DNA of 64,000 bases from an uncultured delta proteobacterium (GCA_963787235.1 CAWBCG010000011.1:37561-101560), one strand, 5' to 3'. Numbered from the stretch's first letter, positions 20,838 to 37,795 are shown. The notes: generated by a model not told the origin, from the letters alone. A program made the numbers and translations.

Positions 20838-21592
20838 CAGAGTCGGGCGATCATCTCTTTGACCACGGCGATAGCGGTCGAATCGACATCGAAGGGCGAT
20901 TTACCCTGCAGGTCGGCTTCGATCAGGGCATCGTCGAACGGAAGGAAACCGAGGAATTCGAAACCGTCGAGGTGTTCCTTGAGAAAGGCTTCGTCCTTGG
21001 GGCCGCGGATCTTGTTACCCACCACGGCGATGTTGTTCAACTTGATTTCAGACGCCAGCTGCTTGATGTGACCGGCCGTATCGATGCTGCGGCGGCCGGG
21101 CTCGACCACCACGATGAGCTTGTCCACGGCCTTGGCCGTGGCCCGGCCCAGATGCTCGATGCCGGCCTCCATGTCCATGACCACGACCTCGTCGCGCTGC
21201 AAAACGACGTGCCGCACCAGGGCCTTCAGCAGGCTGCTCTCGGGGCAGATGCACCCGGCCCCGCCTTTCGACACGCCGCCAAGGCGCATCAGTTTGATGT
21301 TCTCGAGCTTGGCCGAGAGGGCTTCCGGCAGGTCGTCGACCTTCGGGTTGAGCGAAAAGTAGCCGCCGATGCTGCCGGGCTGCGCCCCGGTGCGTTCGAA
21401 GACCAGATCTTTCATATCGGCTATCGGGGTGATCTTGTCCGCGTCGGCAATGCCGAGCGCCGCCGCCAGGTTGGCGTCCGGGTCGGCATCGATCGCGAGC
21501 ACCCGCCGGCCGTCCCGGCTGAGGGTTCGGATGAGCAGCGCCGCAAACGTCGTTTTGCCGACGCCGCCCTTACCGCTGATCGCAAGTTTCAT
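20837..21592 (-). CDS. cooC: CooC/AcsF-type P-loop NTPase (MinD/ParA-like nickel-insertion accessory family)
   Basis: Deviant Walker A ISGKGGVGKTT. AIDADPDANL. CxC motif in GAGCICPES. About 250 aa, as typical for CooC. Confidence 0.75.
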   Translation of the reverse strand: MKLAISGKGGVGKTTFAALLIRTLSRDGRRVLAIDADPDANLAAALGIADADKITPIADMKDLVFERTGAQPGSIGGYFSLNPKVDDLPEALSAKLENIKLMRLGGVSKGGAGCICPESSLLKALVRHVVLQRDEVVVMDMEAGIEHLGRATAKAVDKLIVVVEPGRRSIDTAGHIKQLASEIKLNNIAVVGNKIRGPKDEAFLKEHLDGFEFLGFLPFDDALIEADLQGKSPFDVDSTAIAVVKEMIARL

Positions 21593-21751: not shown

Positions 21752-21799
21752 ATAAATTTTTCCATTCCCCGCGCATGCGCGGGGAATGGAAAAATTTAT
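21752..21799. terminator. Perfect 48-bp palindrome: bidirectional intrinsic terminator at the 3' end of the pilus locus
   Basis: ATAAATTTTTCCATTCCCCGCGCA|TGCGCGGGGAATGGAAAAATTTAT. GC-rich stem flanked by T/A runs on both strands. Overlaps the stop codon (21796-21798) of the giant pilin gene. Confidence 0.65.
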
Positions 21800-24700
21800 T
21801 GCTGGATCGGAATCGTCGCCCTTTGCTCGGCGAACCCCAGTTTGACGGCGTAGTCTTTGAAGTAGACGTTGGCAGCGCCGTGTCCTGCGACCTGGAGCCC
21901 GATTTCAGGGCGCGTGAAGGGAATGTAAGTTGTGGGCGAGGTCAGGGTGTCGGTGATGATGATGGAATAGCGGCCGTCATAGTCCTGCGCGCGGGTGACG
22001 GAACTGTCGACCACGTCGTTCCACTGAACGAGGGTAAAGTAGTCGTCAAAGCCGTCTGTGGCTTCACCTGCGTCCGGAGGCCAGTTAGCCGTACCGAAGA
22101 GGTTTTTCAAGCGCTCTTGGTCGTAAGGAAACAAGCCGTCGGAGGCCGGGCTGGTCGGCGGCGGATCGACGCCGGTTTCGGCCCCGTAATAGGCCTGGAT
22201 TAAATTTTCACGTGAGGAGTATTCGGTGACGTTGGCTACGGCTGTGTTCCCCTTGTCCAGTGGCAAACCGGAAGAAAAATCGACACCCGAAGTGTTGTTG
22301 AGCAACAGCGTTCCGGCGGCATTTCCGCCGGCCCAGCTGCCGGAAGACAATATCGGGGGAATGCTGACTTTACCGATGGCACCGTTTGATTGCGTCACAA
22401 AATCATCTTTTTCGATGGGCGTTGTCCCGCCGCTGTTGAACGTGACCAAAGCTCCCTCGTTGATCCGCACCAGCAGGGTGGACTGGTTTACCGGGAAATC
22501 CCGGATGACCCGGATGTCGTCGACCCACCAGCCGTTGCTCGTTGCGCAGCAGTTTCTTTCAAACCGGAAACGGATCCTGACGTTGGAATTACCGGCGTAG
22601 CTGCTGATATCGAGTGTCTTTTTCACCCATCCGCCTACCTCGTCCGGTAATGCGTCACTGTTGCCGGTGTAACCGGCGTAACTCGAATCGTTCGGTTCGA
22701 TTCCTCCACACTCCAACGGCAGCCTGTCGTTCAGCAGGTTCCAGTTTGAACCGGCATCTTCCGAAATTTCAACAAATCCCAAGTCTTCACAGGACGCCAA
22801 ACGGTAGCGGGTCCAAAAGGTCAATTGGACCGTCGTTGCTTGAGAGAGATCGATCGGCTCGGAAATCAGATAATCGTTCCAGATTTCTCCCGCCGCCGGA
22901 TCGTTGTAAGCGCCCGAGCCAGAAGGGCTTGTCGTCCAGGAATAACTGCTGGGGCTGCGGGCGAAATTGTCGGCCCGGGTCCAGAGGGGGTCCCCGGCAT
23001 GATCGTTCTCGCTGATCCATTTTCCGGACGGCGGTTCCAATTCAGCACCATCGGAAAAGAGAAGACCGAGTTCACTGTAGGCCAGCCACTTTCGGCTCGT
23101 GCCATTGCCGGTCTGCTGCCAGAGCACAACCAGGTTGACGTCGTTTTCCGGTACGATTTCGTCGGGAATTCTGTCCGCCGGGCTGCAGAATGCGCAACCG
23201 CGCATGAGAGAAAGACCGTAGAAATTTTCGTTTTCGTCCAGGCGAAAGGCGAGGCCGGCGGCATAATGCTTCGGGATGGGCGAGCCTTCAGGCCCGTAGC
23301 CCGTTTCCGGGAAAGGCGTCGAATCAAATCCGATTTTGACCTGGTTGTCGTAGCTCAGATAATAGCCGGCCAGGCGGTGAGAATAGGCGAAGTTGACGAC
23401 CTTGTTGGTGGCCCAGTTGAAGGCGATCAGGCCGGCCTTTAATACCCCGAAGCCGGGTTCGACGTCGGTCACCGCCAGTACATTTTCACCGCCTCTGTTC
23501 TCGATTGCAAAGGAGCCGAAGTTCGGGGAACTCCAATTGCTCAAGTCGTTGAAATCGTCACGAAAGACAATTGTTTCCGTAGATCGGTCGGGGAGTGGCA
23601 CGTTGTAAACCACTTCCCGGGCGGCTGCCAGCTCCCCCTGGCCGACCATCCCGATGGAATAAACCCGGACAAAGGGCTCCAAAACGACTTCCGTCGAGGT
23701 GTCCACTGAAATGCTGAAGGATTCCTCCGGGTCTTGTGCCATCGTGACATTTTCCAGGACGTTGCCCTCGCGGTTAACATAGCCGTATGAGACCCCGTTG
23801 ATATTGATCCGCCCCTGGACCTTAGGGAAAAAACCACCGTCGGCCAACGTCAGGTCCCCGTTTCTCGTCACTGTGGCACTGCCGGTCGGGAGCCCGAGCA
23901 GCTTGACGACGGCGTTGTCGTAAACTGTTTCCTCCAAAGGGGAATCGAGAGTGAGCTGTCCTGTGCTGTCATTGTAAGAGTTGTAGGAATAGACGACATT
24001 ACCAATTTTGACACGGGCGTTGAAACCGTCTGATGGTAGCGTAAAACCCTCCGGAATCCCACCGGAAAATTTGGTTGACAATCCAGTGCTGCCGACGGAG
24101 GCGTTGCCGTTTGCGGTCAAAAAATAGGGAAAAAACTTCAATCGGAATTGACCGTCGTCTCCACCGCCCATGGTAAACAGGTCATCGTGGAGGTCCTCGA
24201 GGATCTGGTTTTTTTCGTCCTGGGATTTGTAGCGGTTGTTGGTGTCGGTGGTGTTGAGATAGCGGCTGGCGGCGTACCGGAAACCGGATTCGGCAATGTA
24301 ATAGGCTCTAACGGCGGTGTTGCCGGTCACCTGGCTGGTGGATGAGGTGCCGATCAGCGACACCATGCCGGCTCCCAGGGCGGCAAATAGCAGCAGAATG
24401 ACCACCAGTCCCACCAGCACATTGCCGCGTTCGTTGCGAAAAGCGTTTCCGGATGAAGAAGACATTTTGGCTTCAGATCTGTGAGAGTATCCGACAGCGG
24501 CCAGGATGGAGCCGATAACAGCAAGGACTATGGCTGTGACCGGCCATTTTTGAAGCAAACAATACAATAAGCGGCTGCTGGAGGCTGCAGTCGACACGAA
24601 ACATTGATACTGGTTGGCGGTGACTGGCTCGGAGGTGGCCGGCGCGCCGCCGAAATTTTCGGTGTTACGCGGATTAATGGTGGTCGAGAAAGGCACAGTA

Positions 24701-25197
24701 CCCGCTTCACCTTCTCGGCCTTCTTTGCGGCGTAGGGCGATATCCATTTTCACAGCAGACATTAGATTGATGCCATCGGCAATAATCCAATCGGGGTTCG
24801 GGCCTTTGAAATACTGAATGGTGAAACTGTCCACCTGGTCGATCAAGGTATCACCGGTGACTCCCGAGAGATTGGTGGCACCGGCAGTCAGGCTGTAGAG
24901 CCGTATCGTGCTGCCCACTTTGGCGATGGCCTGTCGTCCCAAGAGGCGGTTGTCAAATACAACCCAAGGATCGGCGCCGTCGTCGCGGGAAATGACATCG
25001 GTCAGCTCCATCAATTCGCGATTGATGCGTGTCAGGGCGATCTGGGCCTTCTGGGCCAGGTGGCCGTTTTCCTTGGCCTGCATGTAACCCCGCAGACCGG
25101 TGACGATTCCCATTCCGGCAATAGCGCCCAGGATTCCGACGATTACAAGCGATGCGATCACCTCGACCAGAGTAAAACCGGCGCAATGCCTCTTCAT
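21796..25197 (-). CDS. Giant prepilin-type minor pilin: MshO/PilW-like N-terminus fused in frame to a PilX/MshP-like segment and a large MshQ-like adhesin region
   Basis: ATG 25197 with AGGAG 7 nt upstream. Class III signal MKRHCAG|FTLVEV. The first module ends with FSTTINPRN. A second N-terminal-like hydrophobic segment NERGNVLVGLVVILLLFAALGAGMV follows the internal ATG at 24465. The C-terminal part has a beta-sandwich pattern (IDLS...LTFW...VEIS.D.G.NW...VRIRF...GWWVDDIRV). The ORF track extends to 25332. Confidence 0.8.
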   Translation of the reverse strand: MKRHCAGFTLVEVIASLVIVGILGAIAGMGIVTGLRGYMQAKENGHLAQKAQIALTRINRELMELTDVISRDDGADPWVVFDNRLLGRQAIAKVGSTIRLYSLTAGATNLSGVTGDTLIDQVDSFTIQYFKGPNPDWIIADGINLMSAVKMDIALRRKEGREGEAGTVPFSTTINPRNTENFGGAPATSEPVTANQYQCFVSTAASSSRLLYCLLQKWPVTAIVLAVIGSILAAVGYSHRSEAKMSSSSGNAFRNERGNVLVGLVVILLLFAALGAGMVSLIGTSSTSQVTGNTAVRAYYIAESGFRYAASRYLNTTDTNNRYKSQDEKNQILEDLHDDLFTMGGGDDGQFRLKFFPYFLTANGNASVGSTGLSTKFSGGIPEGFTLPSDGFNARVKIGNVVYSYNSYNDSTGQLTLDSPLEETVYDNAVVKLLGLPTGSATVTRNGDLTLADGGFFPKVQGRININGVSYGYVNREGNVLENVTMAQDPEESFSISVDTSTEVVLEPFVRVYSIGMVGQGELAAAREVVYNVPLPDRSTETIVFRDDFNDLSNWSSPNFGSFAIENRGGENVLAVTDVEPGFGVLKAGLIAFNWATNKVVNFAYSHRLAGYYLSYDNQVKIGFDSTPFPETGYGPEGSPIPKHYAAGLAFRLDENENFYGLSLMRGCAFCSPADRIPDEIVPENDVNLVVLWQQTGNGTSRKWLAYSELGLLFSDGAELEPPSGKWISENDHAGDPLWTRADNFARSPSSYSWTTSPSGSGAYNDPAAGEIWNDYLISEPIDLSQATTVQLTFWTRYRLASCEDLGFVEISEDAGSNWNLLNDRLPLECGGIEPNDSSYAGYTGNSDALPDEVGGWVKKTLDISSYAGNSNVRIRFRFERNCCATSNGWWVDDIRVIRDFPVNQSTLLVRINEGALVTFNSGGTTPIEKDDFVTQSNGAIGKVSIPPILSSGSWAGGNAAGTLLLNNTSGVDFSSGLPLDKGNTAVANVTEYSSRENLIQAYYGAETGVDPPPTSPASDGLFPYDQERLKNLFGTANWPPDAGEATDGFDDYFTLVQWNDVVDSSVTRAQDYDGRYSIIITDTLTSPTTYIPFTRPEIGLQVAGHGAANVYFKDYAVKLGFAEQRATIPIQQ

Positions 25198-25288: not shown

Positions 25289-25720
25289 TTATCTTGTGTA
25301 TAGGGTCGTGATCTCGTGTTGGCCTCTGACAACGGTTACTTTTAAAACCCGGTGGTAAAAAGGGCTGAGGGGGTCATTGTCCTGAGCCTCGTTTCCGCTG
25401 CCGTCAAACGTAATCCAGGACGTGCTCCAGGTGTAATCACCATAGTTGCCGGTGTTGTTTTCTATGTCACTTTTTAAATCAACTAAGGGATTTTCAGATT
25501 GAGCCAGTTGTTTCTTGTAGTCGGCAGTCATCTTCTCGACGATTGCTGTCAGTTGCATGCTCCCCTGAGCCATTTTTATAGGCACGAAGCTCTTGTGGAC
25601 GGTCTGGCCCAGGAATTCGAGCAGGATGGCCCCCAGGATCGAGCCCACGATCAGGGCAATGATCACCTCGAGCAGGGTGAAGCCGCTCGATTTGCCTTTT
25701 AAAATTCCTGCCGGTTTCAT
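25289..25720 (-). CDS. Prepilin-type minor pilin (MshD/PilV/GspI-like)
   Basis: N-terminal KGKSSG|FTLLEVIIALIVGSIL methylation motif. 143 aa. Start overlaps the upstream stop (ATGA). Confidence 0.8.
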   Translation of the reverse strand: MKPAGILKGKSSGFTLLEVIIALIVGSILGAILLEFLGQTVHKSFVPIKMAQGSMQLTAIVEKMTADYKKQLAQSENPLVDLKSDIENNTGNYGDYTWSTSWITFDGSGNEAQDNDPLSPFYHRVLKVTVVRGQHEITTLYTR

Positions 25721-26202
25721 TCGATAAATCCCGTGTTTTTCGTGATTGTGATCGCGTAATTATCCGACCCTTTAGAGAGGGTCACAGTCCGATTCTCTGT
25801 TATAGGTGCGCCGGGAGGTGTGCCGGAATAGAGCGCGTAATAGGGGATGCCGCGGTCATCGAACGAATACGTGCCGGCCGTTATGCTCATGCCCTCTGCG
25901 GCCAGGTCGACCGTGTTCGCGTTTTCTCCCGGCAGCTTGATGGTCGTGAGGGTGGTGGTAGCGGTGTCATACCTGAAGAGCCAATAACTGCCGCCGGTGC
26001 TGTTGGTCTGTATACCCCAGGGCATATTGTCGTTCATGGCCCGGGCCTGAGCGTGACGCAGCTGGCTCTTCAGGACCTCGGTTTGAACTTTAAGGTCCGC
26101 GCTGGTGACGCGGCCGCGACCGATGGCAAAGGCCACGATGATGCTCATCACGATCAGAACGACCACAATTTCTATAATAGTGAAGCCCGCGTTTTTTTTC
26201 AT
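25717..26202 (-). CDS. Prepilin-type minor pilin (MshC/FimT/GspH-like)
   Basis: MKKNAG|FTIIEIVVVLIVMSII motif. 161 aa. Confidence 0.8.
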   Translation of the reverse strand: MKKNAGFTIIEIVVVLIVMSIIVAFAIGRGRVTSADLKVQTEVLKSQLRHAQARAMNDNMPWGIQTNSTGGSYWLFRYDTATTTLTTIKLPGENANTVDLAAEGMSITAGTYSFDDRGIPYYALYSGTPPGAPITENRTVTLSKGSDNYAITITKNTGFIE

Positions 26203-29546: not shown

Positions 29547-29685
29547 GTTTATTCAGAAATGTGCAATTTTTCGCAAGTTCAAGGAAATTGACTGTATTGC
29601 GCGGAGGCGTACTTTTGTACGCCGCACAAGCGATTCAGCCGATTGACGCCGAAATTGCGGAAAAGGGCCATTTATGGATGGAAAC
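29547..29685 (-). repeat. MITE-like repeat family 1, copy A (one terminus degenerate)
   Basis: Aligns along its length with copies at 32963-33103 and 46129-46270. Its last base is the first base of the platform-gene stop codon complement (29685-29687). Confidence 0.8.
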
Positions 29686-30902
29686 TACTTGACCATCGTG
29701 GACAGATCCCACATCGGTAAAAATATGGCCAGCGCGAAGAACCCGACCACCGCCGCAAGGCCGATGGTCAAAAGGGGACCAAGGGCTTCCGACAGTTTGC
29801 TCATCGCATATTTGACTTCGGAATCGTAATGGTCGGCGACTTCCTGCAGCATTTCCTGGAGGTTGCCGGTTTCCTCGCCGATGGCCACCATGTTGATCAA
29901 CATCGGGGTAAAATATTTTGAACTGGCAAGCGGACCGGCGATGCCCCGGCCTTCTTCCAGCAGGCTCTTCGTTTCTTCGAGATCATTTCCGATGGCGGTA
30001 TTGCCGATGGTGCCGGACAGGATGTTCATCGATTCGAGAATGTCCACCCCGCTGGCGTGCAGGATCGAAAAAATACTGGCAAACCGTGAAATCGCCGCTT
30101 TCTGGAGCAGGATGCCGATAATCGGAAGCTTGAGAATGCTTCGGTCACGAATGAAGCGGCCCGGTGGCGTGCGAAAAAAATAGAAAAGGGCGATCGCACC
30201 CACCACCAACCCGGCGATGATCAGCATCCAGTAAGCGGCCATGAAGCTGTAGAGCTTCATGCAAATGACGGTCGGCAGGGGCAGTATCAATCCGGCGCTT
30301 TTGAAAATGCTGGCAAATTTTGGGATGACGAAGGTCAGCAGGACGATAAAGGCAATGATCAGAAAAGCGACGACGATGGCCGGATATTGCAATGCCGACT
30401 TGATGTCGGATTTGACCTTTTGTTCGTGTTCCAGGATATAGGTCAACCGATGGAGTATTTCGGGCAGCGCACCGCTGGCCTCACCGGCCTGCACCATGCT
30501 GCAGTAGAGCGGTGAAAAAACGCGGGGATGCCTGCGAAAGGCTTCGGTCAGACTGGCACCTTCGTTGATGTCCTGGTGCATCACGGAGATGACTTTTTTG
30601 AGCTTTACGTTCTCGGTCTGATCTTCCAGGATCGACAACAGGCTCAGCATCGAGACTCCGGCACGGATCATGGTGCGGAACTGTTTTGTGAAAAGAATGA
30701 TTTCCGATGTCCGAATCGGGGAGAGTTGATCTTGTAAGGCTTTGAAATTGATCCCCGCGCCGGCACCGATTGCTTTGACCCGGGTTGGGATGTATCCCAT
30801 TGCAGTGAGCTTGTTGTTGGCGGAATCGGTTGAATCGGCCTCGATGAAGCCGGAACCGGTTTCGCCGGTTTCGGTGATAACCTTGTAGGCGTATTTCGGC
30901 AT
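29685..30902 (-). CDS. Type IV pilus / T2SS platform protein (GspF/PilC/MshG family)
   Basis: ATG 30902 with GAGGA RBS (MPKYAYKVITETGE...). Two GspF-type repeats and 3 TM segments. The ORF track extends to 30992. Confidence 0.9.
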   Translation of the reverse strand: MPKYAYKVITETGETGSGFIEADSTDSANNKLTAMGYIPTRVKAIGAGAGINFKALQDQLSPIRTSEIILFTKQFRTMIRAGVSMLSLLSILEDQTENVKLKKVISVMHQDINEGASLTEAFRRHPRVFSPLYCSMVQAGEASGALPEILHRLTYILEHEQKVKSDIKSALQYPAIVVAFLIIAFIVLLTFVIPKFASIFKSAGLILPLPTVICMKLYSFMAAYWMLIIAGLVVGAIALFYFFRTPPGRFIRDRSILKLPIIGILLQKAAISRFASIFSILHASGVDILESMNILSGTIGNTAIGNDLEETKSLLEEGRGIAGPLASSKYFTPMLINMVAIGEETGNLQEMLQEVADHYDSEVKYAMSKLSEALGPLLTIGLAAVVGFFALAIFLPMWDLSTMVK

Positions 30903-31035
30903 TTGTTCCTCTATGGCCGTGGCGGCGGTCCCTTCCGTCAGCAGCCAGAAATTAGCGGTGGCAATAAGAATACAATAGATTACGCCGGGCAACCGGATTT
31001 TATGGGTTTACCGAGAACCACTATTCGGCAGCCCG

Positions 31036-32811
31036 TTACGTTAATACCGCTGATGCGGCCTCCTCGAACGTCGTGATACCCAGTTTGATTTTTTGCGCGG
31101 CATCTTCCTTCAACGTCATGAAATGACCGGCTTCTTTTGCGGCGCGTCCGATTTTGTGGGATGACTGCTTTTTCAGGATCATGTTTTGAATCATGTCGTC
31201 GATCAACAGCACTTCGTAAATGCCGGTTCGGCCTTTGTACCCCGTGTGCATGCAGTTGTAGCATCCGGTTCCGTGCAGAAAACTGGCATGGCGGTTGTTC
31301 GTCAGACCCCAGTATTCGAGGACTTCCGGAGGGGCATTGTGTGGTTTTTTGCAGTGGGGGCAGATGGTCCGAACCAGACGTTGGGCAAAGGATACGATCA
31401 TCGTCGAGGCCACCAGAAAAGGTTCGATGCCCATGTCGATGAAACGGGTAATTGCGCCGGCGGCGTCATTTGTATGCAGAGTGCTCAACACCTTGTGGCC
31501 GGTCAAAGCGGCCTGGACGGCCACCGTGGCGGTCTCGGAGTCGCGGATTTCGCCGACCATGATGACATCCGGGTCCTGGCGCAGGATCGACCTCAGACCG
31601 TCCGCAAAGGTCATCCCCGCTTTGCGGTTGAGCTGGACCTGGCAGATTTTTTCGATCCGATATTCCACCGGGTCTTCGACCGTGATGATGTTGGTGTCCG
31701 GTTTGTTTATGGTTTTGAGGATCGAATACAAGCTGGTGCTCTTGCCACTGCCTGTCGGTCCGGTGCTCAGGATCATGCCGTATGAACGGTTGATGACCGA
31801 AACGAGTTTGCCCCGATCCATCTCCGACATGCCGAGGCGTTCGAGAGAGTAGACCCCGCTGCTGGTGTCGAGCAACCGCAGCACCAGATTCTCGCCGTAG
31901 ATGGACGGTATGGTCGACGTCCGAATATTAATCTCCTTGTTTTTCATCTTGACCGTGAAACGGCCGTCCTGGGGAACGCGTGCAATGGAGATGTCCATGT
32001 TGGCGAGAATCTTGAGTCTGGAGATGATCGGCAGGAACATCGACTTGGGCGGGGCGGGCACATCGTGAAGTTTGCCGTCGACACGGAAGCGCACCTGCAC
32101 ATAATCTTTTTCCGGGCTGATGTGAATGTCGCTGGCACCCTCACGGACGGCTTGCGACAGAATCGAGTTGACCAAACGGATAACCGGAGCCTCTTCGGCC
32201 ATGCCCTGCAGGGAACTGACCTCGACGTCCTCCGTCACCGCGGCCTTTTCGATCTCCTTATCGTACTGCATCTCCTCCATGTCTTCCAACACACCACCGA
32301 TACCCGAATAAGTGCCGTAGAGTGTGCTCAGAAGCTGGTTCAGATCCTGTTCGGTGCAGATCACCGTTTCGACTTCGTTGTTGGTATACACCTCGATCGC
32401 ATCGACGGCATTGATATCCATCGGGTCGATCATGGCGATCGTCAGGAGCAGATGGTTTTTTTTAAGCGGCACAGCCTGGTAGCGAAAGGCCATATCAGCG
32501 GGGATGACGTTGGCCAACTCGGTGTCGATCTGGTAGGCTTCTGCCGAGTATTTTTCCAGATTCAACTGGTTGGAGACCATTTCGACGATCTGAACCTCAC
32601 TGACAATACCCTCGCGCACAAGAAACTGACCCAGCTTCAGACCGGATTTTTTTTGGTACGGTAGGGCTTCCTCAAGCTGCGACCGGGTTAAAAGCCCGCC
32701 TTCAATGAGTATTTCTCCCAATCGCTTTTTCGTTTTCAATTTTTTAGTCTCACCGGCTTGCCTGCTGCCGCCGCTATCGAGGGGCATCGGGTTATTTGGG
32801 TTTGGTTTCAT
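31036..32811 (-). CDS. mshE: Type IV pilus assembly ATPase, MshE/PilB type, with an N-terminal MshEN (T2SSE_N) domain
   Basis: GspE-family core (Walker A GPTGSGKST, Asp box, Walker B, tetracysteine CPHC...CYNC). The N-terminus carries two tandem 24-residue c-di-GMP-binding-type motifs. Confidence 0.9.
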   Translation of the reverse strand: MKPNPNNPMPLDSGGSRQAGETKKLKTKKRLGEILIEGGLLTRSQLEEALPYQKKSGLKLGQFLVREGIVSEVQIVEMVSNQLNLEKYSAEAYQIDTELANVIPADMAFRYQAVPLKKNHLLLTIAMIDPMDINAVDAIEVYTNNEVETVICTEQDLNQLLSTLYGTYSGIGGVLEDMEEMQYDKEIEKAAVTEDVEVSSLQGMAEEAPVIRLVNSILSQAVREGASDIHISPEKDYVQVRFRVDGKLHDVPAPPKSMFLPIISRLKILANMDISIARVPQDGRFTVKMKNKEINIRTSTIPSIYGENLVLRLLDTSSGVYSLERLGMSEMDRGKLVSVINRSYGMILSTGPTGSGKSTSLYSILKTINKPDTNIITVEDPVEYRIEKICQVQLNRKAGMTFADGLRSILRQDPDVIMVGEIRDSETATVAVQAALTGHKVLSTLHTNDAAGAITRFIDMGIEPFLVASTMIVSFAQRLVRTICPHCKKPHNAPPEVLEYWGLTNNRHASFLHGTGCYNCMHTGYKGRTGIYEVLLIDDMIQNMILKKQSSHKIGRAAKEAGHFMTLKEDAAQKIKLGITTFEEAASAVLT

Positions 32812-32962
32812 AATCTTTTTGACAAACTCCTCATTTGCACCCGTGTTCCTGGATGCTTCGATTCGCGAACGCGAAATCGTATTTAGAAGAATAAAAATTG
32901 ATCGGCTGCTCAGTCAGCAATTAGCTTGTGCCCATCCACGGTTTTTTTGAGGGCACTGGTAA

Positions 32963-33103
32963 GTTTCCGATCCAGAAATGTGCCATTTTCTGCAAGTTCA
33001 AGGAAATCAAAGAATTGCGCGGAGGCATACTACTGTATGCCGCACAAGCGATTCCGCCGATTGACGCCGAAATTGCGGAAAAGGGCCATTTATGGACGGA
33101 AAC
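32963..33103 (-). repeat. MITE-like repeat family 1, copy B (full length, 141 nt)
   Basis: Termini GTTTCCGATCCA...TGGACGGAAAC. Central hairpin GGCATAC-TACT-GTATGCC. Lies between the ExeA-like and mshE genes. Confidence 0.85.
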
Positions 33104-33110
33104 GAGCTTG

Positions 33111-34817
33111 TCAACCATTGGTGCGACGGTGTTGATGTCCAAAAAACGGGTCTCTGTAAAAGACCGTTTCAGGCGACCAGATCGATACGATTCGGCTCTC
33201 CTGTGAGAGGGCCGTCGGCAGATGTTCTAATGTAATCCGGGCCGTCAAGGGGTCGAAAAAAAAACGGTTTAACAACAGGTCGAACTGGATGCCGGTTCGC
33301 GGGGTCCAGTAAGAGACGATCCTGACCTGGCGGGCATTGCCGGTCAAGGAGCGTAATAAAACATAGGCGTCTTCGAGACTCCGGCGGTGCGCGACACTGA
33401 TCCACCACACGGGATCGGCAAGAGGACGGACATCCGCCGGAATAGCCGGTATCCGCACCATCTGGCCCACCTGAACCAGGTTGGGATCGGTAATGAGCGG
33501 GTTGGCGAGCAACAGGGATTCAAAGAGCGCGGAACTGACATCGCCGTAGATGGTTTCTATCAACCCGTAAAGATTTTCGTTGGGCATGATGGTGATCTGT
33601 CCGAGTTCATGGGGCGTTTCGAGCTGTGGCGGGTTTGTGACTGTCGCAGGCCCCGCCGATTGTAAACTGGCGGCCAGATCGGCAGTAACCGGAGCAGTGC
33701 CCCCGGACACGGGCTGCACAGCTGGGGCTGCAGGTGGTGATACAGGGGGTGCAGGGGGCGCTGGTAAGTCGGTTGCAGCGGAATGCGGCATCATGGGCGC
33801 AGGTAGCGGTTCCGGCATGACGTCGATTTTGCGATAGCTGACCGTTGAACGACTGGACTGCGGGTCGGTCAACGAGGAGTCGGTTTGAGCCGATAATCGC
33901 AGGTGTCGAATGTCGATTGCCGCGATACCGATCGCCAAAAACAGGAGTGGGATGCCAACGGACAGAGCCAGACGTTTGATGCGTCGGCTACGGTGTGGAA
34001 ATACACGCCGGATGCAGGTCCGGGCCAGAAAGAGATCAACCGATGGTCGACTCTGAATGATCATCGTCAGGATGCATCGGTGGCACAGATTGATGATTTT
34101 ACGGGGGTATCCCCTCGAAGCCACGTAGATGGCGATCAGTGCCGGCAGGCTGAAATACGTGTAGGCTTTGTAATTCGTGCTCGATTTCTCGAGCCGGAAG
34201 CGGATCATGGCGCGGGTATCGCCGAAACTCATCGGTTTCAAATGGTGATACAAATTGATCCGGTCGGCAAAATTGGCATAGTGGTCGATCGTGTTTTGAA
34301 ATTCCGTTTGGGCGAATATGACGATCTGCAGCAATTTGTATTCATTGGTCTCGTAGTTCAAGAACTCCCGCAGCAGTTCCAGACAAAACGCCGGCAATTT
34401 CTGACCCTCGTCGATGATGAGAACGACTGTCTTTTTTTCATCCACGCCGCGCTTAAAGAGATGGTTTTTGACCACTTCCTTCATCTGCCAGTCCCGGGCC
34501 TCTTCCGGTGGCCGCCGGCCGGTCAGCATTTCAATGATCGTCACTAAAAATTCCGCGGTGCTCGAAAAGCCGGGATCCAGAACGAGGTGGGTTTCAAATT
34601 CATTGGTCTTGGTAAACCGACGGATCAACTGGCGGCAAAGGGTGGTCTTGCCGGTGCCGACATCGCCGATGATGACGTTCAGACCGCGGCGCAACCGCAG
34701 GGCGAGTTCTAACTTTTGCAGGCATTCGAGATGCTGTTGGGAACCGTAGAAAAATTCAGGATCCGGCGAGTTGGAAAACGGTTCCTTGTCGAGGTTGACG
34801 ATGCTGAAATATTCCAT
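33111..34817 (-). CDS. ExeA/GspA/MshM-like AAA ATPase with TM segment, Pro/Ala-rich linker and C-terminal peptidoglycan-binding-like region
   Basis: N-terminal FSNSPDPEFFYGSQQH...IIGDVGTGKTTLCRQL (ExeA-type Walker A). TM LALSVGIPLLFLAIGIAAI. LysM-like NENLYGLIETIYG...VQVGQMVRIP. Further C-terminal beta-rich domain. Confidence 0.85.
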   Translation of the reverse strand: MEYFSIVNLDKEPFSNSPDPEFFYGSQQHLECLQKLELALRLRRGLNVIIGDVGTGKTTLCRQLIRRFTKTNEFETHLVLDPGFSSTAEFLVTIIEMLTGRRPPEEARDWQMKEVVKNHLFKRGVDEKKTVVLIIDEGQKLPAFCLELLREFLNYETNEYKLLQIVIFAQTEFQNTIDHYANFADRINLYHHLKPMSFGDTRAMIRFRLEKSSTNYKAYTYFSLPALIAIYVASRGYPRKIINLCHRCILTMIIQSRPSVDLFLARTCIRRVFPHRSRRIKRLALSVGIPLLFLAIGIAAIDIRHLRLSAQTDSSLTDPQSSRSTVSYRKIDVMPEPLPAPMMPHSAATDLPAPPAPPVSPPAAPAVQPVSGGTAPVTADLAASLQSAGPATVTNPPQLETPHELGQITIMPNENLYGLIETIYGDVSSALFESLLLANPLITDPNLVQVGQMVRIPAIPADVRPLADPVWWISVAHRRSLEDAYVLLRSLTGNARQVRIVSYWTPRTGIQFDLLLNRFFFDPLTARITLEHLPTALSQESRIVSIWSPETVFYRDPFFGHQHRRTNG

Positions 34818-34928
34818 GGTGGCCGGTGGGTGGTGCCAAAAACAAAATTAGAATACCATCAAGGAGCGCAAAAAGATGAACAGATTATGCTTCGAAACCC
34901 TTCATTAAACTTTTAGGTTGGGACGGCT

Positions 34929-36509
34929 TCACTGTGTGGGGTAAGGCGCAATGGAAGAAGACGTGGCCGTGCCTGCCGCTTTTTCTTCCAGTATGTAAGG
35001 CGTGATGAAAATAAGCACATCTTCCATAGCGCCGCTGCGGGACCGACTACCGAAAAGCCATCCAAGCCCTGGTACGTCTTTCAGATACGGGATTCCGGCC
35101 TGGTTGGAGGCCGTTGTCTCTTTATTCAAGCCACCGATGACCGTTGTCTGCCCATTCAACAGGATGACGTTGGTCTCGGCTTTTTTTGTAATGATGGTGG
35201 GGTTGCCGGCAACCGGCCGGGAAAAATCGGGTTCGTCCTTGTTGGTGAGAATCTTTAATTTCAAAGCGTCCTCATCGATGACATTCGGAGTGACTTCCAG
35301 TCGAAGAGTTGCCTGAACATATTCGATATTGACCTCTCCGTTTTCCACGGTCTGAATCGGGATCCTGCTGCCGGACTCTATCAGGGCGATTTGGTTCTCC
35401 AGGGTTGTGATCGAGGGACTCGAGAGAATGTTGAGCCGACCTTCATTCTGCAGGGCCTGCAGCTGCAGGGAAAGGGCGCTTCGGCCGACATTTTGGAACA
35501 GGAAACCCAGCGACAAACCGATGTTGTCCTGGAGGTTTATCGGGAAATTGGAAATATTTCCCAAAGGCCATAGATATTCGATCGGGTCGCCGTTTTCGTC
35601 TTTGATTGACCTTCTGTCCTCGAAATTGACGCTGTCGGGCCCCACCCAGATGTTGTTGTCGTTCGAGGTGCCGTAGAACAGCCCCCCCCACTGCACACCG
35701 AGAGCTCTGGCCGTGTCGTTGCTGGTCTCAACAATGTAGGCCTGGATCAAAATCTGGGCGATCGGGCGGTCGATCTGGTCCACCACGGCCAGCATGCGGC
35801 GCAGGTCACTGGGAATGGCCTGGATGATCAGGGAGTTGGTGTGTTCGTCAACCAGCACCGACCCCAAAGGCTTGCCTTCCCTGTCGAGCGACAGGAACTG
35901 CTGCATGTTTTCCCGTAGCGTGGCCGCGCTGGCATAGCTGATTTTGACTACTTCGGTCGTCAGCGGCTCGGCCTTATCGAGCTCATTTCTTTGTTCTTCA
36001 CGCTTCAGCTCGGTCTCCATGTCCTGCACCGTCATGACACGGATGATGTCCCCCTCCCAGGCATAGGTCAGCCCCTGGGTGCGCAGTATGCTTTTAAAAA
36101 CCTGATCCCAGGGAGCTTCCGTGATATTGATGTTGATCTTGCCCGTGACCTTATCGTTGAGCATGATATTCTGATTGGCAATCCGGGCCAGGGCTCGCAA
36201 CAAAACCGGAACGTCGATGTCGTTCATTTTCATGGTGATTTTACGGGACGGCAGCGGCTTTTCCGGGGGCGGTTTCAAAACATCGGGTTTGGCGGCTGCG
36301 CCTCCATGGTCGCCGGCCATCGATTCCCGTCCGTGTTTTTTGGGCGATGGAGAATACGCCTGGGAATCGGCCACCCTGGCTTTCCATTCCTCGAAAATGC
36401 CCTTCTCAGACGGAGGCGGAGGCGTTGTGCAGCCAATAATAAGGGCGGTCACCAGCAAGAAGCTGACCAGACGCACCAAGAATTGAACGGTTCTGTCGTA
36501 GGATGCCAT
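34929..36509 (-). CDS. Secretin (PilQ/MshL/GspD family), lipoprotein-type signal
   Basis: Lipobox LIIGC. N-domain repeats. Secretin C-domain blocks (VLVDEHTNSLII, TTVIGGL, GIPYLKDVPGLGWLFG, LIFITPYI). Confidence 0.9.
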   Translation of the reverse strand: MASYDRTVQFLVRLVSFLLVTALIIGCTTPPPPSEKGIFEEWKARVADSQAYSPSPKKHGRESMAGDHGGAAAKPDVLKPPPEKPLPSRKITMKMNDIDVPVLLRALARIANQNIMLNDKVTGKININITEAPWDQVFKSILRTQGLTYAWEGDIIRVMTVQDMETELKREEQRNELDKAEPLTTEVVKISYASAATLRENMQQFLSLDREGKPLGSVLVDEHTNSLIIQAIPSDLRRMLAVVDQIDRPIAQILIQAYIVETSNDTARALGVQWGGLFYGTSNDNNIWVGPDSVNFEDRRSIKDENGDPIEYLWPLGNISNFPINLQDNIGLSLGFLFQNVGRSALSLQLQALQNEGRLNILSSPSITTLENQIALIESGSRIPIQTVENGEVNIEYVQATLRLEVTPNVIDEDALKLKILTNKDEPDFSRPVAGNPTIITKKAETNVILLNGQTTVIGGLNKETTASNQAGIPYLKDVPGLGWLFGSRSRSGAMEDVLIFITPYILEEKAAGTATSSSIAPYPTQ

Positions 36510-36523
36510 TTTCCCCTGCTGCT

Positions 36524-37039
36524 CTATTGCATTTCTTCCAATTTGACGGTGATCTTCTTTTTTTTGCCTTGCATGCCCACAACCACCCTGTTCGGGTGGA
36601 TCTCCTCGACGATATGGGCGCCGTCCGGCAGTTTTTCGCCTTTTTCGTATTCGATGCCGTTGATGATGGCGAGATTTCGGTTACCCATGTTTAAAAAACC
36701 CGAATAGACGATGCCAAGCTCCTGGGCGGTTGCACCCTTTTTAACCTCGTCCAGTTTTTCCTTTTCCGGTTTGAACGCGACTTCTTTTCTGGTGTTCAAG
36801 AGAGGATCTTTGGTCCATTTGACCGGGATTTTATCGATGATGTAGGTTTCCTCTTCCGAAACGCCCCCCTTGACCAGTGTGGCGACATTCGTGATGAATT
36901 TATTGAATGTGTCCAGCTTGTTTCCGGAGGCGGCCAGTTTCGGTTTGCCCGGTGACGGGTTTTCAAGAAACAGGGCATAGAAACCGTAAACGATCGTCAG
37001 CGCCATTATGATCAGAATAACTTTTTCCCGCTTGGACAT
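36524..37039 (-). CDS. PilP/MshK-like pilus assembly protein
   Basis: Single N-terminal TM. C-terminal YSGFLNMGNRNLAIINGIEYEKGEKL...IVEEIHPNRVVV pattern typical of PilP/GspC-like HR domains. Start uncertain (37039 or 37087). Confidence 0.55.
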   Translation of the reverse strand: MSKREKVILIIMALTIVYGFYALFLENPSPGKPKLAASGNKLDTFNKFITNVATLVKGGVSEEETYIIDKIPVKWTKDPLLNTRKEVAFKPEKEKLDEVKKGATAQELGIVYSGFLNMGNRNLAIINGIEYEKGEKLPDGAHIVEEIHPNRVVVGMQGKKKKITVKLEEMQ

Positions 37040-37251
37040 TTTCGGGGCCTTAAGGGATGTACGGCCGTGATCCGGAGCTGTGATCAATCAGTCGGTGCCC
37101 GCAAGGCCCGACGCTGAAAGAAGGGCTCCAGTCGTAAAACCGCATGAATTGTATTATCATATCACTATTCAACCATCAAATTAAGAGAAGATTTCTGGAT
37201 CGAAAACCGACCAGTGCCATCATAAATAAATTCGTGGCTGGACATGACCTG

Positions 37252-37788
37252 TCACTCACGGGCCAGCAGCAACCGCAGCCGGAACTCTTTCGTGTCGCTG
37301 GCCGACTTGATCGTAATTTCCTCTATCTTATCAAGATACGGCAGCCGGCAGATCTGGAGCAGGAACGGCTGCAAATTAAAAAAGTCTCCCTTCAACAGCA
37401 TGCTGACTTTCAGGGTGCCGGTCTCACCGATCATCGATTGGATTTCCGGTGAATATTCAGCCAGCTGAAGTTTGCTTTCCCTGGCCATCTCTTGAAAAGT
37501 CCGTCCAACTTTGTCGGTTTCGTCCCGCTTCAGTTTCTCCGCCGGAACGACATTCAGTCCCGCGGGGGGCTTCATCTGTGTTTTCTTTAAAAGGCTCTCG
37601 TAGAGCGGCGTCAGGATCTGTTCCTCTTTGATCCGTCCACTGATCTCATCGATCCGTCTATCGAGCGCTTCGGAATCTCTTTGCGCCGGTAAAATGGCCA
37701 ACAGCACGAAAAGGATGATGCCGCCGCCGAAAATGATCACATTCAATAGGCTCTTAGTGGGAACCGATGTCAGGTTAATTTTGGCCAT
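37252..37788 (-). CDS. PilO/MshJ-like pilus assembly protein
   Basis: N-terminal TM, coiled-coil segment, C-terminal ferredoxin-like region. Position between the PilM/N fusion and the PilP-like gene. Confidence 0.65.
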   Translation of the reverse strand: MAKINLTSVPTKSLLNVIIFGGGIILFVLLAILPAQRDSEALDRRIDEISGRIKEEQILTPLYESLLKKTQMKPPAGLNVVPAEKLKRDETDKVGRTFQEMARESKLQLAEYSPEIQSMIGETGTLKVSMLLKGDFFNLQPFLLQICRLPYLDKIEEITIKSASDTKEFRLRLLLARE

Positions 37789-37795
37789 AGCGATT

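What the first reader, a model, noticed from the sequence alone, without database searches (positions are those of the whole stretch)
21796..25197. Giant minor pilin that fuses MshO/PilW-like, PilX/MshP-like and MshQ-like parts in one frame
**Layout of the ORF:**
- It begins with a standard class III signal (G|FTLVEV).
- A about 180-aa pseudopilin module follows and ends with the typical ...FSTTINPRN (to about 24664).
- Then 66 codons run without a stop (24466-24663), including a hydrophobic stretch WPVTAIVLAVIGSILAAVGY.
- At ATG 24465 a second, PilX-like N-terminus begins (NERGNVLVGLVVILLLFAALGAGMV).
- About 890 further residues follow, including a jelly-roll-like surface domain.

**Why it matters.** In characterised MSHA loci these are separate genes. 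Two readings are possible:
- It is a real tip-complex fusion with three hydrophobic segments, which would be topologically odd.
- It is two genes, with the second starting at 24465 and an open inter-gene frame by chance.
Basis: partly seen in the sequence, partly recalled or inferred. Interest (0 to 1): 0.65.

Follow-up and report, generated by a model that had tools for sequence, protein, structure and literature searches.

The report
Two tip pilins fused in one precursor
This is one real, conserved gene of sulfate-reducing bacteria that joins two pilus-tip subunits, normally made from separate genes, through a membrane-crossing linker borrowed from a protein-sorting tag, so the cell probably has to cut it back into two pilins.

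Summary
An 1133-codon ORF lies on the minus strand (21796-25197) with three hydrophobic segments.

The fusion is real, not a chance open frame:
- About 140 non-redundant homologs, down to 30% identity, keep the same single-ORF layout. They come from Desulfobacterales, Syntrophales and a cultured Nitratidesulfovibrio.
- The Met at 24465 is not conserved.
- Both 893-aa "split" homologs are artefacts: one a frameshifted contig, one a contig end.

Other relatives do have two genes. There the first ends just after the PRN motif. The second starts with a short basic leader ending in Gly.

The linker is a reduced CFI-box-CTERM sorting domain: an almost always conserved Cys-Phe motif, one transmembrane helix and a basic tail. 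Deeper-branching homologs carry the full NCBIfam domain internally.

The topology is coherent, not odd. It runs in-out-in-out. The basic loop is predicted cytoplasmic and ends in an invariant Gly before a GspK/PilX-type helix that lacks Glu5.

- **Module 1:** folds like GspJ/EpsJ.
- **Module 2:** a PilX-like pilin followed by jelly-roll/MAM adhesin-like domains.

My best reading, which is inferred and not shown, is a pilin polyprotein cleaved by prepilin peptidase at two sites. I rate it a new variant of a known kind, of moderate to high interest.

The parts
21796..25197 (-). Complete fused ORF of 1133 aa plus stop. It encodes a precursor with three transmembrane segments.
   Evidence: Full-length homologs at 29-93% identity. 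AGGAG lies 7 nt upstream of the ATG at 25197.
25177..25197 (-). Leader peptide 1, MKRHCAG, ending in Gly7. This is the canonical class III cleavage site G|FTLVEV.
   Evidence: Pfam N_methyl 27.4 bits (cut-off 21.2) and TIGR02532 21.8 bits (cut-off 16.3). G7, F8 and E12 are invariant in 69 sequences.
24664..25176 (-). Module 1, residues 8-178: a GspJ/PilW/MshO-type minor pilin. It has a long N-terminal helix and a beta-sheet, and ends in ...TTINPRN.
   Evidence: AF2 gives helix 10-63 and strands 65-174, with pLDDT about 75-90. Foldseek top hits are EpsJ/GspJ (3cfi, 2ret, 3ci0_J), probability 1.0, TM-score 0.51-0.60 on the target. Pfam T2SSJ hits 3 of 20 homologs. In two-gene relatives the gene stops just after PRN.
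24604..24663 (-). Spacer, residues 179-198 (TENFGGAPATSEPVTANQYQ), rich in Pro, Thr and Ala. N181 and G184 are invariant.
   Evidence: AF2 pLDDT is below 50.
24583..24603 (-). Cys-box CFVSTAA, residues 199-205: the signature motif of a reduced CFI-box-CTERM domain.
   Evidence: C199 is invariant and F200 is conserved in at least 90% of 69 sequences. Homologs P0066, P0088 and P0106 match the complete NF041770 model starting at this Cys, at 72-78 bits against a cut-off of 40. The same motif starts genuine C-terminal CFI-box domains.
24487..24546 (-). TM2, residues 218-237 (WPVTAIVLAVIGSILAAVGY): predicted return helix running from periplasm to cytoplasm.
   Evidence: A hydropathy peak is present in nearly all homologs. 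AF2 places a helix at 218-236. It corresponds to the transmembrane helix of CFI-box-CTERM proteins.
24424..24486 (-). Basic loop, residues 238-258 (SHRSEAKMSSSSGNAFRNERG), predicted cytoplasmic. It equals the leader peptide of module 2 and ends in the invariant Gly258. It contains the non-conserved Met245 (24463-24465).
   Evidence: The loop is net positive in 64 of 68 homologs, with a mean of 5.1 K/R against 1.35 D/E, and G258 is present in 69 of 69. Stand-alone homologs start with an 8-45 aa leader ending in this Gly. Met245 is Ile or absent in P0001, P0010, P0011 and P0024.
24349..24423 (-). TM3, the N-terminal helix of module 2 (NVLVGLVVILLLFAALGAGMVSLIG). It is GspK/PilX-type, with no Glu at +5.
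   Evidence: The site consensus is [RK]-G|[NSA]-[VA]-L-[IV]-[GA]-L-[IV]-V. Pfam PilX_N hits 8 of 20 homologs, best E 2.4e-4. AF2 places a helix at 259-314.
23578..24348 (-). Module 2 pilin-like head and first beta domains, residues 284-540, including the invariant YY(L/I)AESGFRYAAS motif.
   Evidence: Y299, E303 and G305 are invariant. AF2 pLDDT is mostly 85-95.
21799..23577 (-). Distal beta-rich adhesin-like region, residues 541-1133. It contains jelly-roll/MAM-type domains (Pfam hit 778-916, window 22450-22866) and a nearly invariant extreme C-terminus, ...IPIQQ.
   Evidence: Pfam InhA-like_MAM 34.8 bits (cut-off 26.9). Foldseek hits reelin, meprin MAM, InhA2, Eph ligand-binding and gingipain adhesin domains. 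P1130 and Q1132 are conserved in at least 90%.
25289..26202 (-). Two upstream minor-pilin genes: a GspH-like one at 25717-26202 and a 143-aa pilin in the GspI/MshD position at 25289-25720. Together with the fused gene they give the order H, I, J~K.
   Evidence: TIGR01708 gspH E 1.3e-10 and Pfam GspH. N_methyl motifs are present.
29685..39682 (-). MSHA-type assembly machinery of the same cluster: T2SSF platform, MshE-type ATPase (MshEN domain), MshM/ExeA-like AAA protein, secretin and a PilM-like protein.

Best explanation
**What it is.** The ORF is a genuine fused gene of an MSHA-type type IV filament cluster. It encodes one precursor with three transmembrane helices.

- TM1 is the class III signal helix of a GspJ/PilW/MshO-type minor pilin (module 1).
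- TM2 is the membrane helix of a cut-down CFI-box-CTERM sorting domain. It brings the chain back to the cytoplasm.
- TM3 is the helix of a GspK/PilX/MshP-type capping pilin that lacks Glu5. That pilin already carries its own large jelly-roll/MAM adhesin-like domains (module 2).
- Both globular modules therefore face the periplasm.
- The short basic loop between TM2 and TM3 is cytoplasmic. It is homologous to the leader peptide of stand-alone module-2 genes.

**Proposed mechanism (inferred).**
- The Sec machinery inserts the chain as an ordinary polytopic membrane protein.
- Prepilin peptidase then cuts after Gly7 and after the invariant Gly258. This yields the J-type and K-type tip subunits side by side and in a 1:1 ratio, ready to prime pilus assembly with the upstream H- and I-type pilins.
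- For module 1 to leave the membrane with the growing tip, TM2 must also come off, presumably at or near the conserved Cys-Phe motif.

**Shown versus inferred.** The single conserved ORF, the domain identities, the origin of the linker, the charge pattern and the invariant Gly are shown. Every cleavage event and the topology itself are inferred.
For: **The fusion is real**
- 68 aligned homologs at 29-93% identity keep one frame with linkers of variable length (46-160 aa).
- About 143 of 243 collected relatives are fused. They include Smithella, Syntrophaceae, Desulfatibacillaceae, Desulfosarcina alkanivorans and a cultured Nitratidesulfovibrio.
- Both 893-aa 'split' hits are artefacts.

**It arose from two genes**
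- Two-gene relatives end gene 1 right after PRN.
- They start gene 2 with a basic leader, then Gly, then the same helix and AESG(F/Y)RY motif.

**The linker is a CFI-box**
- NF041770 scores 72-78 bits (cut-off 40) internally in P0066, P0088 and P0106.
- Genuine C-terminal examples end with a Cys motif, a helical part, a transmembrane helix, RRR and a stop.
- The window's subfamily keeps the Cys-Phe motif, one transmembrane helix and the basic tail.

**Topology and cleavage site**
- The loop is net positive in 64 of 68 homologs.
- Gly258 is invariant, and no homolog has Glu at +5.
- Prepilin peptidase cuts on the cytoplasmic face after a Gly or Ala that ends a hydrophilic leader of variable length. 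Tip complexes are capped by a subunit lacking Glu5 (PMC10191384).

**Module identities**
- The Foldseek top hits are EpsJ/GspJ.
- PilX_N and T2SSJ give weak Pfam hits in homologs.
- The gene order is H, I, J~K inside an MSHA-type cluster.

**Precedent.** Caulobacter CpaL is a K-type pilin that carries its own adhesin and a C-terminal strand (PMC13533445).
Against: - No experiment shows cleavage at an internal class III site in any system. Here the 'leader' is tethered to a transmembrane helix instead of having a free N-terminus, and in some homologs it reaches 50-59 aa.
- After cleavage at Gly258, module 1 would still carry TM2. A third, unknown protease is then needed, and no prepilin peptidase, CPBP or sortase-like gene was found in the window.
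- The window protein itself scores on neither NF041770, PilX_N nor T2SSJ. Those assignments come from homologs.
- No GspK structure appeared among the Foldseek hits.
- The EpsJ match is modest (E about 2e-3), and the tool does not report which part of the query aligned.
- Full CFI-box forms have an extra semi-hydrophobic segment before the transmembrane helix. If that segment also spanned the membrane, the topology would break.
- One fused homolog, P0153, lacks the Cys.
Confidence: 0.6

Rival explanations
1. The fusion is real but is not cut internally. Only the N-terminal leader is removed. The protein then acts as one membrane-anchored unit with three transmembrane helices, holding the J- and K-type heads together at the inner-membrane platform. 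It might work as an assembly initiator or a short pseudopilus cap that never travels far from the membrane.
For: - No case of internal prepilin-peptidase cleavage was found in the literature searches.
- TM2 and the loop are retained in every fused homolog.
- The linker between PRN and TM2 is flexible and low-confidence in the model, as expected for a tether.
- No extra protease gene is in the window.
Against: - Gly258 is invariant in 69 of 69 sequences, and the site matches the start of stand-alone homologs that must be processed there.
- In canonical type IV filaments the N-termini of the subunit helices pack in the filament core, and filaments grow from tip to base (PMC10191384). A hairpin of about 60 residues joined to the N-terminus of the K subunit would not fit (inference).
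- A tether of about 40 residues would stop the tip leaving the membrane (inference).
Confidence: 0.25
2. It is two genes. Module 2 is translated independently from ATG 24465, and the 66 open codens upstream of it are open by chance.
For: In this single sequence, a 66-codon open stretch has a chance probability of about 0.08. Gene callers produced 893-aa products starting at the equivalent Met in two relatives.
Against: - The frame is open in the 68 aligned homologs, with invariant C199 and G258 inside the 'spacer'.
- Met245 is Ile in P0001, P0010 and P0011 and absent in P0024.
- No Shine-Dalgarno sequence precedes 24465, whereas AGGAG precedes 25197.
- The two 893-aa calls come from a frameshift inside module 1 in an error-prone contig and from a contig end. 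In both, the linker is still in frame with module 2.
Confidence: 0.03
3. It is an assembly or sequencing artefact, or a recent pseudogene that lost a stop codon between two genes.
For: Relatives with two separate genes exist. A related contig, L001, carries frameshifts.
Against: - The same architecture is found in independent assemblies from JGI, ENA, NCBI and Logan.
- It also occurs in a complete genome (Desulfosarcina alkanivorans DSCA_09150) and in a cultured Nitratidesulfovibrio.
- The linker is not a read-through intergenic region. It is an inserted, conserved domain.
Confidence: 0.01

Closest known systems
Vibrio cholerae MSHA tip genes mshO, mshP and mshQ, equivalent to PilW/PilX/PilY1 and to GspJ/GspK (table in PMC13533445)
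   Same: - The cluster type matches: MshE ATPase with MshEN domain, MshM-like AAA protein, secretin and platform.
- The gene order matches: major pilins, H-type, I-type, then J-type, K-type and a large distal protein.
- Module 1 ends in a short ...N-P-R-N strand, much as MshO/PilW-like proteins end in ...N-x-P.
   Different: - In Vibrio these are three separate genes. Here they are one ORF joined by a Cys-box and a transmembrane helix.
- No MshO, MshP or MshQ family model matched the protein.
- The distal part is built of MAM/jelly-roll domains, not a recognisable MshQ or PilY1 domain.
T2SS GspJ-GspK (EpsJ, XcpW/XcpX; PDB 3CI0, 3CFI, 2RET)
   Same: - Foldseek places part of the 1-540 model closest to EpsJ/GspJ, most likely module 1, though the tool does not report the aligned query range.
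- Module 2 shares the GspK hallmark: a class III-like site with Gly at -1 and no Glu5 (PMC10191384).
   Different: - GspJ and GspK are separate polypeptides.
- No GspK structure matched module 2.
- Module 2 is about 875 aa and all-beta after its helix.
Caulobacter CpaL and the modular pilins PilB and PilC of Streptococcus sanguinis
   Same: A pilin module carries grafted adhesive domains in one chain. CpaL is a K-type subunit predicted to supply its own C-terminal strand (PMC13533445; PMC10191384). Module 2 has the same layout and a nearly invariant extreme C-terminus...PIQQ.
   Different: Those proteins hold one pilin module and one N-terminal signal. This protein holds two pilin modules, and the second class III-like site is internal.
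[quoted passage not shown]
   Same: The layout is the same: an invariant Cys in a short motif, then a transmembrane helix, then a basic cluster (Haft preprint 10.1101/2023.06.07.544157). Deep-branching homologs pass the NF041770 cut-off.
   Different: - Those domains are C-terminal by definition. Here the domain is internal, and its basic tail runs into a second pilin leader.
- The window's version has lost the central LRxFRD helical part and does not score on the model.
- No paper on the CFI-box was found, and its processing enzyme, if any, is unknown to me.

Membership tests
Type IV pilin / pseudopilin (class III signal peptide) | Short hydrophilic leader ending in Gly or Ala, followed by about 20 hydrophobic residues, usually with Glu at +5 | tested here: met
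   Module 1: MKRHCAG|FTLVEV. Pfam N_methyl scores 27.4 bits (cut-off 21.2) and TIGR02532 21.8 bits (cut-off 16.3). G7, F8 and E12 are invariant.
Type IV pilin / pseudopilin (class III signal peptide) | Lollipop fold: a long N-terminal helix packed on an antiparallel beta-sheet | tested here: met
   AF2 gives helix 10-63 with strands 65-174, and again helix 259-314 followed by sheet.
GspJ / PilW / MshO minor pilin (module 1) | Sequence membership (Pfam T2SSJ PF11612 or a PilW/MshO model) | tested here: inconclusive
   The window protein has no hit at E<=1. 3 of 20 homologous module-1 sequences hit T2SSJ, best E 8.3e-4. A profile search against PDB matched only the N-terminal helix.
GspJ / PilW / MshO minor pilin (module 1) | GspJ-type fold | tested here: inconclusive
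   With the model of residues 1-540, the top Foldseek hits are all EpsJ/GspJ chains (3cfi, 2ret, 3ci0_J). Probability is 1.0, TM-score on the target 0.51-0.60 and rmsd 4.2-5.9 A, but E is only 2e-3 to 2e-2. The tool does not say which query residues aligned.
GspK / PilX / MshP capping minor pilin (module 2) | Class III-like site with Gly at -1 and no Glu at +5; last pilin of the minor-pilin operon | tested here: met
   Gly258 is present in 69 of 69 sequences. Position +5 is G, A, T or S and never E. The position follows the H-, I- and J-type pilins.
GspK / PilX / MshP capping minor pilin (module 2) | Sequence or fold membership (Pfam PilX_N PF14341; GspK structure) | tested here: inconclusive
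   PilX_N hits 8 of 20 homologs (best E 2.4e-4) but not the window sequence. No GspK chain is among the Foldseek hits. A profile search against PDB found nothing.
GspK / PilX / MshP capping minor pilin (module 2) | Actual cleavage by prepilin peptidase | not testable with these tools
   This needs N-terminal mapping or co-expression with the peptidase.
PilY1 / PilC / MshQ tip adhesin (distal part) | Sequence membership in a PilY1/PilC or MshQ family | tested here: not met
   No such Pfam or NCBIfam hit was found. Only InhA-like MAM, Reelin subrepeat B and the MAM-like region of M36 peptidases matched.
PilY1 / PilC / MshQ tip adhesin (distal part) | Extreme C-terminal beta-strand that completes the sheet of the K-type pilin | not testable with these tools
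   The C-terminus ...IPIQQ is nearly invariant, and AF2 draws a short strand at residues 1131-1132. Model coordinates and contacts are not available, so the partner of that strand is unknown.
CFI-box-CTERM sorting domain (NF041770) | Score above the curated cut-off (40 bits) | tested here: not met
   The window protein has no hit at E<=1. Homologs P0066, P0088 and P0106 score 72-78 bits. The window keeps only the CFVSTAA motif, the transmembrane helix and the basic tail.
CFI-box-CTERM sorting domain (NF041770) | Location at the C-terminus of the protein | tested here: not met
   The domain lies at about residues 193-261 of proteins of 1100-1360 aa. Genuine examples end 10-15 residues after the transmembrane helix.
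MSHA-type type IV filament system (the cluster) | MshE-type ATPase with MshEN domain, MshM/ExeA-like AAA protein, secretin, platform protein and PilM-like protein next to the pilin genes | tested here: met
   One search found T2SSE with MshEN, AAA_22, Secretin with N0, T2SSF and PilM_2. No prepilin peptidase gene was found among the window ORFs scanned.

The most novel reading that the evidence does not exclude
This is a natural pilin polyprotein. One precursor is cut three times: by prepilin peptidase after Gly7, by prepilin peptidase again at an internal class III site after Gly258, and by an unidentified Cys-box (CFI-box) sorting protease near Cys199. The cuts release a J-type and a K-type/adhesin tip subunit in fixed 1:1 stoichiometry.

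As far as I could find, this would be:
- the first internal substrate site for a prepilin peptidase;
- the first 'C-terminal' sorting signal working from inside a protein;
- a direct handle on what the orphan CFI-box does.
Probability: 0.3. Interest if true: 0.8.

Novelty: new variant of a known kind. Interest (0 to 1): 0.6.

Why it matters
- **Tip complexes.** Complexes of J- and K-type minor pilins prime every type IV filament. How they meet in the membrane in the right ratio is still being worked out (PMC13533445, PMC10191384). A widespread natural fusion of the two subunits suggests that co-insertion and fixed stoichiometry are selectable.
- **Prepilin peptidase.** The fusion gives a built-in test of whether the peptidase can use an internal site whose leader is tethered to a membrane helix.
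- **CFI-box.** An orphan sorting domain sits in a context where its role can be read out, either as a membrane-return anchor or as a cleavage site. The window's subfamily has already trimmed it to Cys-Phe, one transmembrane helix and a basic tail.
- **Experiments.** Cultured carriers exist: Desulfosarcina alkanivorans DSCA_09150 and Nitratidesulfovibrio sp. 1201_IL3209.
- **Annotation.** Source annotations name these proteins inconsistently: immune inhibitor A, choice-of-anchor J, PulJ/GspJ, PilX. Gene callers sometimes split them.

Tried and rejected
- **Window protein against NCBIfam and Pfam.** Neither recognised the linker or either pilin body. The CFI-box appeared only when distant homologs were scanned.
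- **The two 893-aa homologs that looked like split genes.**
  - P0012 lies on a contig with a frameshift inside module 1 and a second frameshift in the helicase gene.
  - P0013 begins 213 nt from a contig end, and the upstream frame is open through the Cys-box.
  - Both were rejected as evidence for two genes.
- **Profile searches of module 1 and of the module 2 N-terminus against PDB sequences.** Only the generic N-terminal helix matched.
- **Foldseek with the full-length model.** Jelly-roll and MAM hits swamped the result and said nothing about the pilin modules. A second model of residues 1-540 was needed.
- **Search for genuine CFI-box proteins with the linker of P0066.** It returned only 5 hits because of the word index. 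That was enough to see how real C-terminal domains end but not to survey the family.
- **Literature searches.** Terms were 'CFI-box', 'CFIATAAYG', fused minor pilins, 'prepilin peptidase' with 'polyprotein', and MshO/MshP/MshQ. None found a description of this architecture.
- **Search for a prepilin peptidase, CPBP/Rce1-like protease or sortase-like gene among about 45 window ORFs.** None was found.
- **Hedgehog/intein-like autoprocessing at the 'CF' motif.** I considered this and dropped it. The CFI-box is about 70 mostly helical residues and in this window only about 40, which is too small for a Hint fold. This is reasoning only and was not tested.
- **Synonymous versus non-synonymous comparison of module 2 between the window and L001/L037.** Indels put the comparison out of register, so I ignored it.

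Full report
**1. Observation**

The minus strand carries an ORF from ATG 25197 to the stop at 21796-21798, 1133 aa. The mechanical ORF extends to a TTG at 25332. However, AGGAG lies 7 nt before the 25197 ATG, and the product then starts MKRHCAG|FTLVEV, a canonical class III signal. Pfam N_methyl scores 27.4 bits against 21.2, and TIGR02532 scores 21.8 against 16.3.

The features are these:
- Module 1 ends ...FSTTINPRN at residue 178 (24664).
- They contain CFVSTAA (199-205) and WPVTAIVLAVIGSILAAVGY (218-237).
- Met245 is at 24465.
- NERG|NVLVGLVVILLLFAALGAGMV follows, then about 875 more residues with an InhA-like MAM / jelly-roll hit at 778-916.

In this one sequence, 66 open codons have a chance probability of about 0.08. 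The question therefore had to be settled by comparison.

**2. One gene or two**

A search of the 5.8-billion-protein collection returned 109 relatives. About 70 cover the whole query at 30-93% identity and are 1040-1200 aa long. In an alignment of 69 sequences the frame is continuous through linkers of 46-160 aa. The linker itself holds invariant residues, C199 and G258.

Met245 is not conserved. It is Ile in P0001, P0010 and P0011 and absent in P0024. No Shine-Dalgarno sequence precedes it.

Two 893-aa hits looked like a separate second gene, and both are artefacts:
- P0012 sits on a contig with a frameshift inside module 1. The linker is still in frame with module 2, and the neighbouring helicase gene is frameshifted too.
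- P0013 begins 213 nt from a contig end, with the upstream frame open through the Cys motif.

An exhaustive HMMER search of 1.84 billion cluster representatives found 244 clusters at E<=1e-30. Of the 243 sequences I then held, I classified them by motif:
- about 143 are fused;
- 56 fall in the stand-alone module-2 class, which includes P0012 and P0013, the two artefacts above, and a few truncated gene calls.

The fusion is real and old.

**3. Where the fusion came from**

A scan of species-representative genomes found fused genes in several lineages:
- a Desulfatibacillaceae MAG;
- Smithella;
- Syntrophaceae;
- a cultured Nitratidesulfovibrio sp.

Desulfosarcina alkanivorans DSCA_09150 is another carrier.

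Other Syntrophales and Desulfobacterales genomes have two genes. Gene 1 stops within about 10 residues of the PRN motif, for example ...FSTTVNPRNTGG*. Gene 2 begins with a basic leader ending in Gly, followed by the same helix and the AESG(F/Y)RY motif. Examples are M..EKIKAGHRG|SVLISLLV and MIKGYCPVESHLVRSGRG|AMLISLII.

The loop of the fused protein is therefore the former leader peptide of gene 2. Module 2, a K-type pilin with its own large distal domains, already existed as one protein before module 1 was joined to it.

**4. What the linker is**

Deep-branching fused homologs (P0066, P0088, P0106 and many others) match the complete NCBIfam CFI-box-CTERM domain NF041770. They score 72-78 bits against a cut-off of 40, and the match lies internally at about residues 193-261.

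Genuine CFI-box proteins end with these elements in order:
- the motif CFIATAAYGS;
- a helical part, LRQFRD...YYR.SPP;
- an amphipathic segment;
- a transmembrane helix;
- RRR and then the stop.

This is the motif / transmembrane helix / basic-cluster layout that Haft describes for other Cys-containing C-terminal sorting signals (10.1101/2023.06.07.544157).

The window's subfamily has deleted the central helical part and keeps Cys-Phe-Val-Ser-Thr-Ala-Ala, one transmembrane helix and the basic tail. It therefore does not score on the model.

The Cys-[FM]-[IVL] motif is present in all fused sequences I inspected except P0153. That protein keeps only the transmembrane helix, an RRKRR loop and the Gly.

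I found no paper on the CFI-box.

**5. Topology**

They are not:
- TM1 runs in to out.
- TM2 runs out to in.
- TM3 runs in to out.

Both globular modules therefore end up in the periplasm. The 21-residue loop SHRSEAKMSSSSGNAFRNERG lies in the cytoplasm.

Across homologs, the segment between the last linker transmembrane helix and Gly258 has on average 5.1 K/R against 1.35 D/E. It is net positive in 64 of 68. That fits the positive-inside rule, which also orients ordinary prepilins (PMC10191384).

AF2 models the linker as a low-confidence coil plus a helix at 218-236, flanked by two confident pilin lollipops (mean pLDDT 80.3).

One caveat applies. Full CFI-box forms show a second, weaker hydrophobic segment before the transmembrane helix. 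In genuine CFI-box proteins that segment carries charged residues and looks amphipathic. I treat it as not membrane-spanning, but that is an inference.

**6. Identity of the modules**

The cluster is MSHA-type:
- a PilM-like protein;
- a secretin;
- an MshM/ExeA-like AAA protein;
- an MshE ATPase with MshEN domain;
- a T2SSF platform;
- a sigma-54 activator;
- several G-type pilins.

A GspH-like pilin follows (TIGR01708 E 1.3e-10), then a 143-aa pilin in the I position, then the fused gene.

*Module 1.* With a model of residues 1-540 (pLDDT 78.4), the top Foldseek PDB hits are all EpsJ/GspJ chains (3cfi, 2ret, 3ci0_J). Probability is 1.0 and TM-score on the target is 0.51-0.60, but E is only 2e-3 to 2e-2. 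T2SSJ hits 3 of 20 homologs.

*Module 2.* The site consensus is [RK]-G|[NSA]-[VA]-L-[IV]-[GA]-L-[IV]-V, with no Glu at +5. Lacking Glu5 is the hallmark of the subunit that caps the tip complex (PMC10191384). PilX_N hits 8 of 20 homologs. No GspK structure matched.

*Distal 600 residues.* These resemble MAM, CBM, Eph ligand-binding and gingipain-adhesin jelly rolls. No PilY1, PilC or MshQ family matched, so 'MshQ-like' holds by position only.

*C-terminus.* The extreme C-terminus ...IPIQQ is nearly invariant. By analogy with CpaL, MshQ and PilY1 (PMC13533445) it may be the strand that completes the K-type sheet. I could not test this because model coordinates are not exposed.

**7. Mechanism**

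Shown:
- a single conserved ORF;
- two pilin modules;
- a CFI-box-derived return helix;
- a positively charged loop homologous to a leader peptide;
- an invariant Gly.

Inferred:
- The chain inserts as a polytopic membrane protein.
- Prepilin peptidase works on the cytoplasmic face and cuts after a Gly or Ala that ends a hydrophilic leader of variable length (PMC10191384). It cuts after Gly7 and after Gly258.
- This delivers J-type and K-type subunits together in a 1:1 ratio.

In canonical filaments the subunit N-termini pack in the core, and the tip moves away from the membrane. Module 1 must therefore also lose TM2. The conserved Cys-Phe motif is the obvious candidate site, by analogy with the Cys-containing sorting signals that Haft proposes are cut by CPBP/Rce1-type proteases.

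No peptidase gene of either kind lies in the window.

My confidence in each step:
- real fused gene: above 0.95;
- coherent in-out-in-out topology: about 0.8;
- internal prepilin-peptidase cleavage: about 0.55;
- third cut at the Cys-box: about 0.35.

The main rival is an uncleaved membrane-anchored J~K unit, at about 0.25.

**8. Comparison and novelty**

The closest known systems are:
- MshO/MshP/MshQ and GspJ/GspK, which are separate genes;
- CpaL and the modular pilins, which have one pilin module plus an adhesin;
- the CFI-box and other Cys-type C-terminal sorting signals, which are always terminal.

This family differs from all of them. It has two pilin modules in one chain, an internal class III-like site, and a 'C-terminal' sorting domain used as an internal connector.

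I found no description of such an architecture. Source annotations name members inconsistently.

I rate it a new variant of a known kind. It is computationally solid as an architecture, speculative as a processing pathway, and testable in cultured strains. Interest: 0.6.

Noticed in passing
window 27300-27829 (-): A third major-pilin paralog is broken by at least two frameshifts. The listed 71-aa ORF (27614-27829) is only its N-terminal stub. The rest continues in other frames (SELNGRENLAWANIK..., then ...TDYVWTAGPGAGGGTLSF...) and resembles the two intact paralogs downstream. It is either a pseudogene or a sequencing error.
   Followed up: partly
L001 (ENA ERZ25039549 contig_22409), 5187-8682 and 9640-11773: This close relative's contig has a frameshift in the fused pilin gene and another in the DEAD-box helicase gene, which is intact in the window (18705-20837). 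The assembly looks error-prone, and its gene calls produced the misleading 893-aa 'split' protein.
   Followed up: yes
protein P0153 (a hit of the representatives search): This fused homolog has no Cys motif in the linker at all. It has only a transmembrane helix, an RRKRR loop and the Gly. The Cys-box is therefore not strictly required for the fusion to persist.
   Followed up: partly
window 21799-21828 (-), residues 1124-1133: The extreme C-terminus ...IPIQQ is nearly invariant across the family, and related two-gene proteins end in ...IQY or ...LQY. It may be the C-terminal beta-strand assembly signal described for PilY1, MshQ and CpaL.
   Followed up: partly
window 13198-15052 (-): An AbiEi antitoxin / AbiEii nucleotidyltransferase toxin pair (type IV toxin-antitoxin or abortive-infection module).
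   Followed up: no
window 61329-62721 (+): A BBP2_2 beta-barrel porin appears split into two ORFs (61329-62123 and 62149-62721). It lies beside GNVR chain-length-determinant, ParA-like and UDP-GlcNAc 2-epimerase genes, which together look like an exopolysaccharide locus.
   Followed up: no
window 40176-55549 (+): Beside the pilus cluster there is dense regulatory content: three hybrid histidine kinases with PAS and receiver domains (40176-42137, 49040-51715, 51712-53589), two further sigma-54 activators (46916-47968, 54650-55549), and a second ExeA/MshM-like AAA_22 protein with an OmpA domain (43475-45022).
   Followed up: no
window 16786-18711 (+) and 20837-21592 (-): A PAS / histidine kinase / receiver hybrid and a CbiA/ParA-type P-loop ATPase flank the fused gene on its downstream side. 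The ParA-like gene and the helicase are syntenic in L001 and L037.
   Followed up: no
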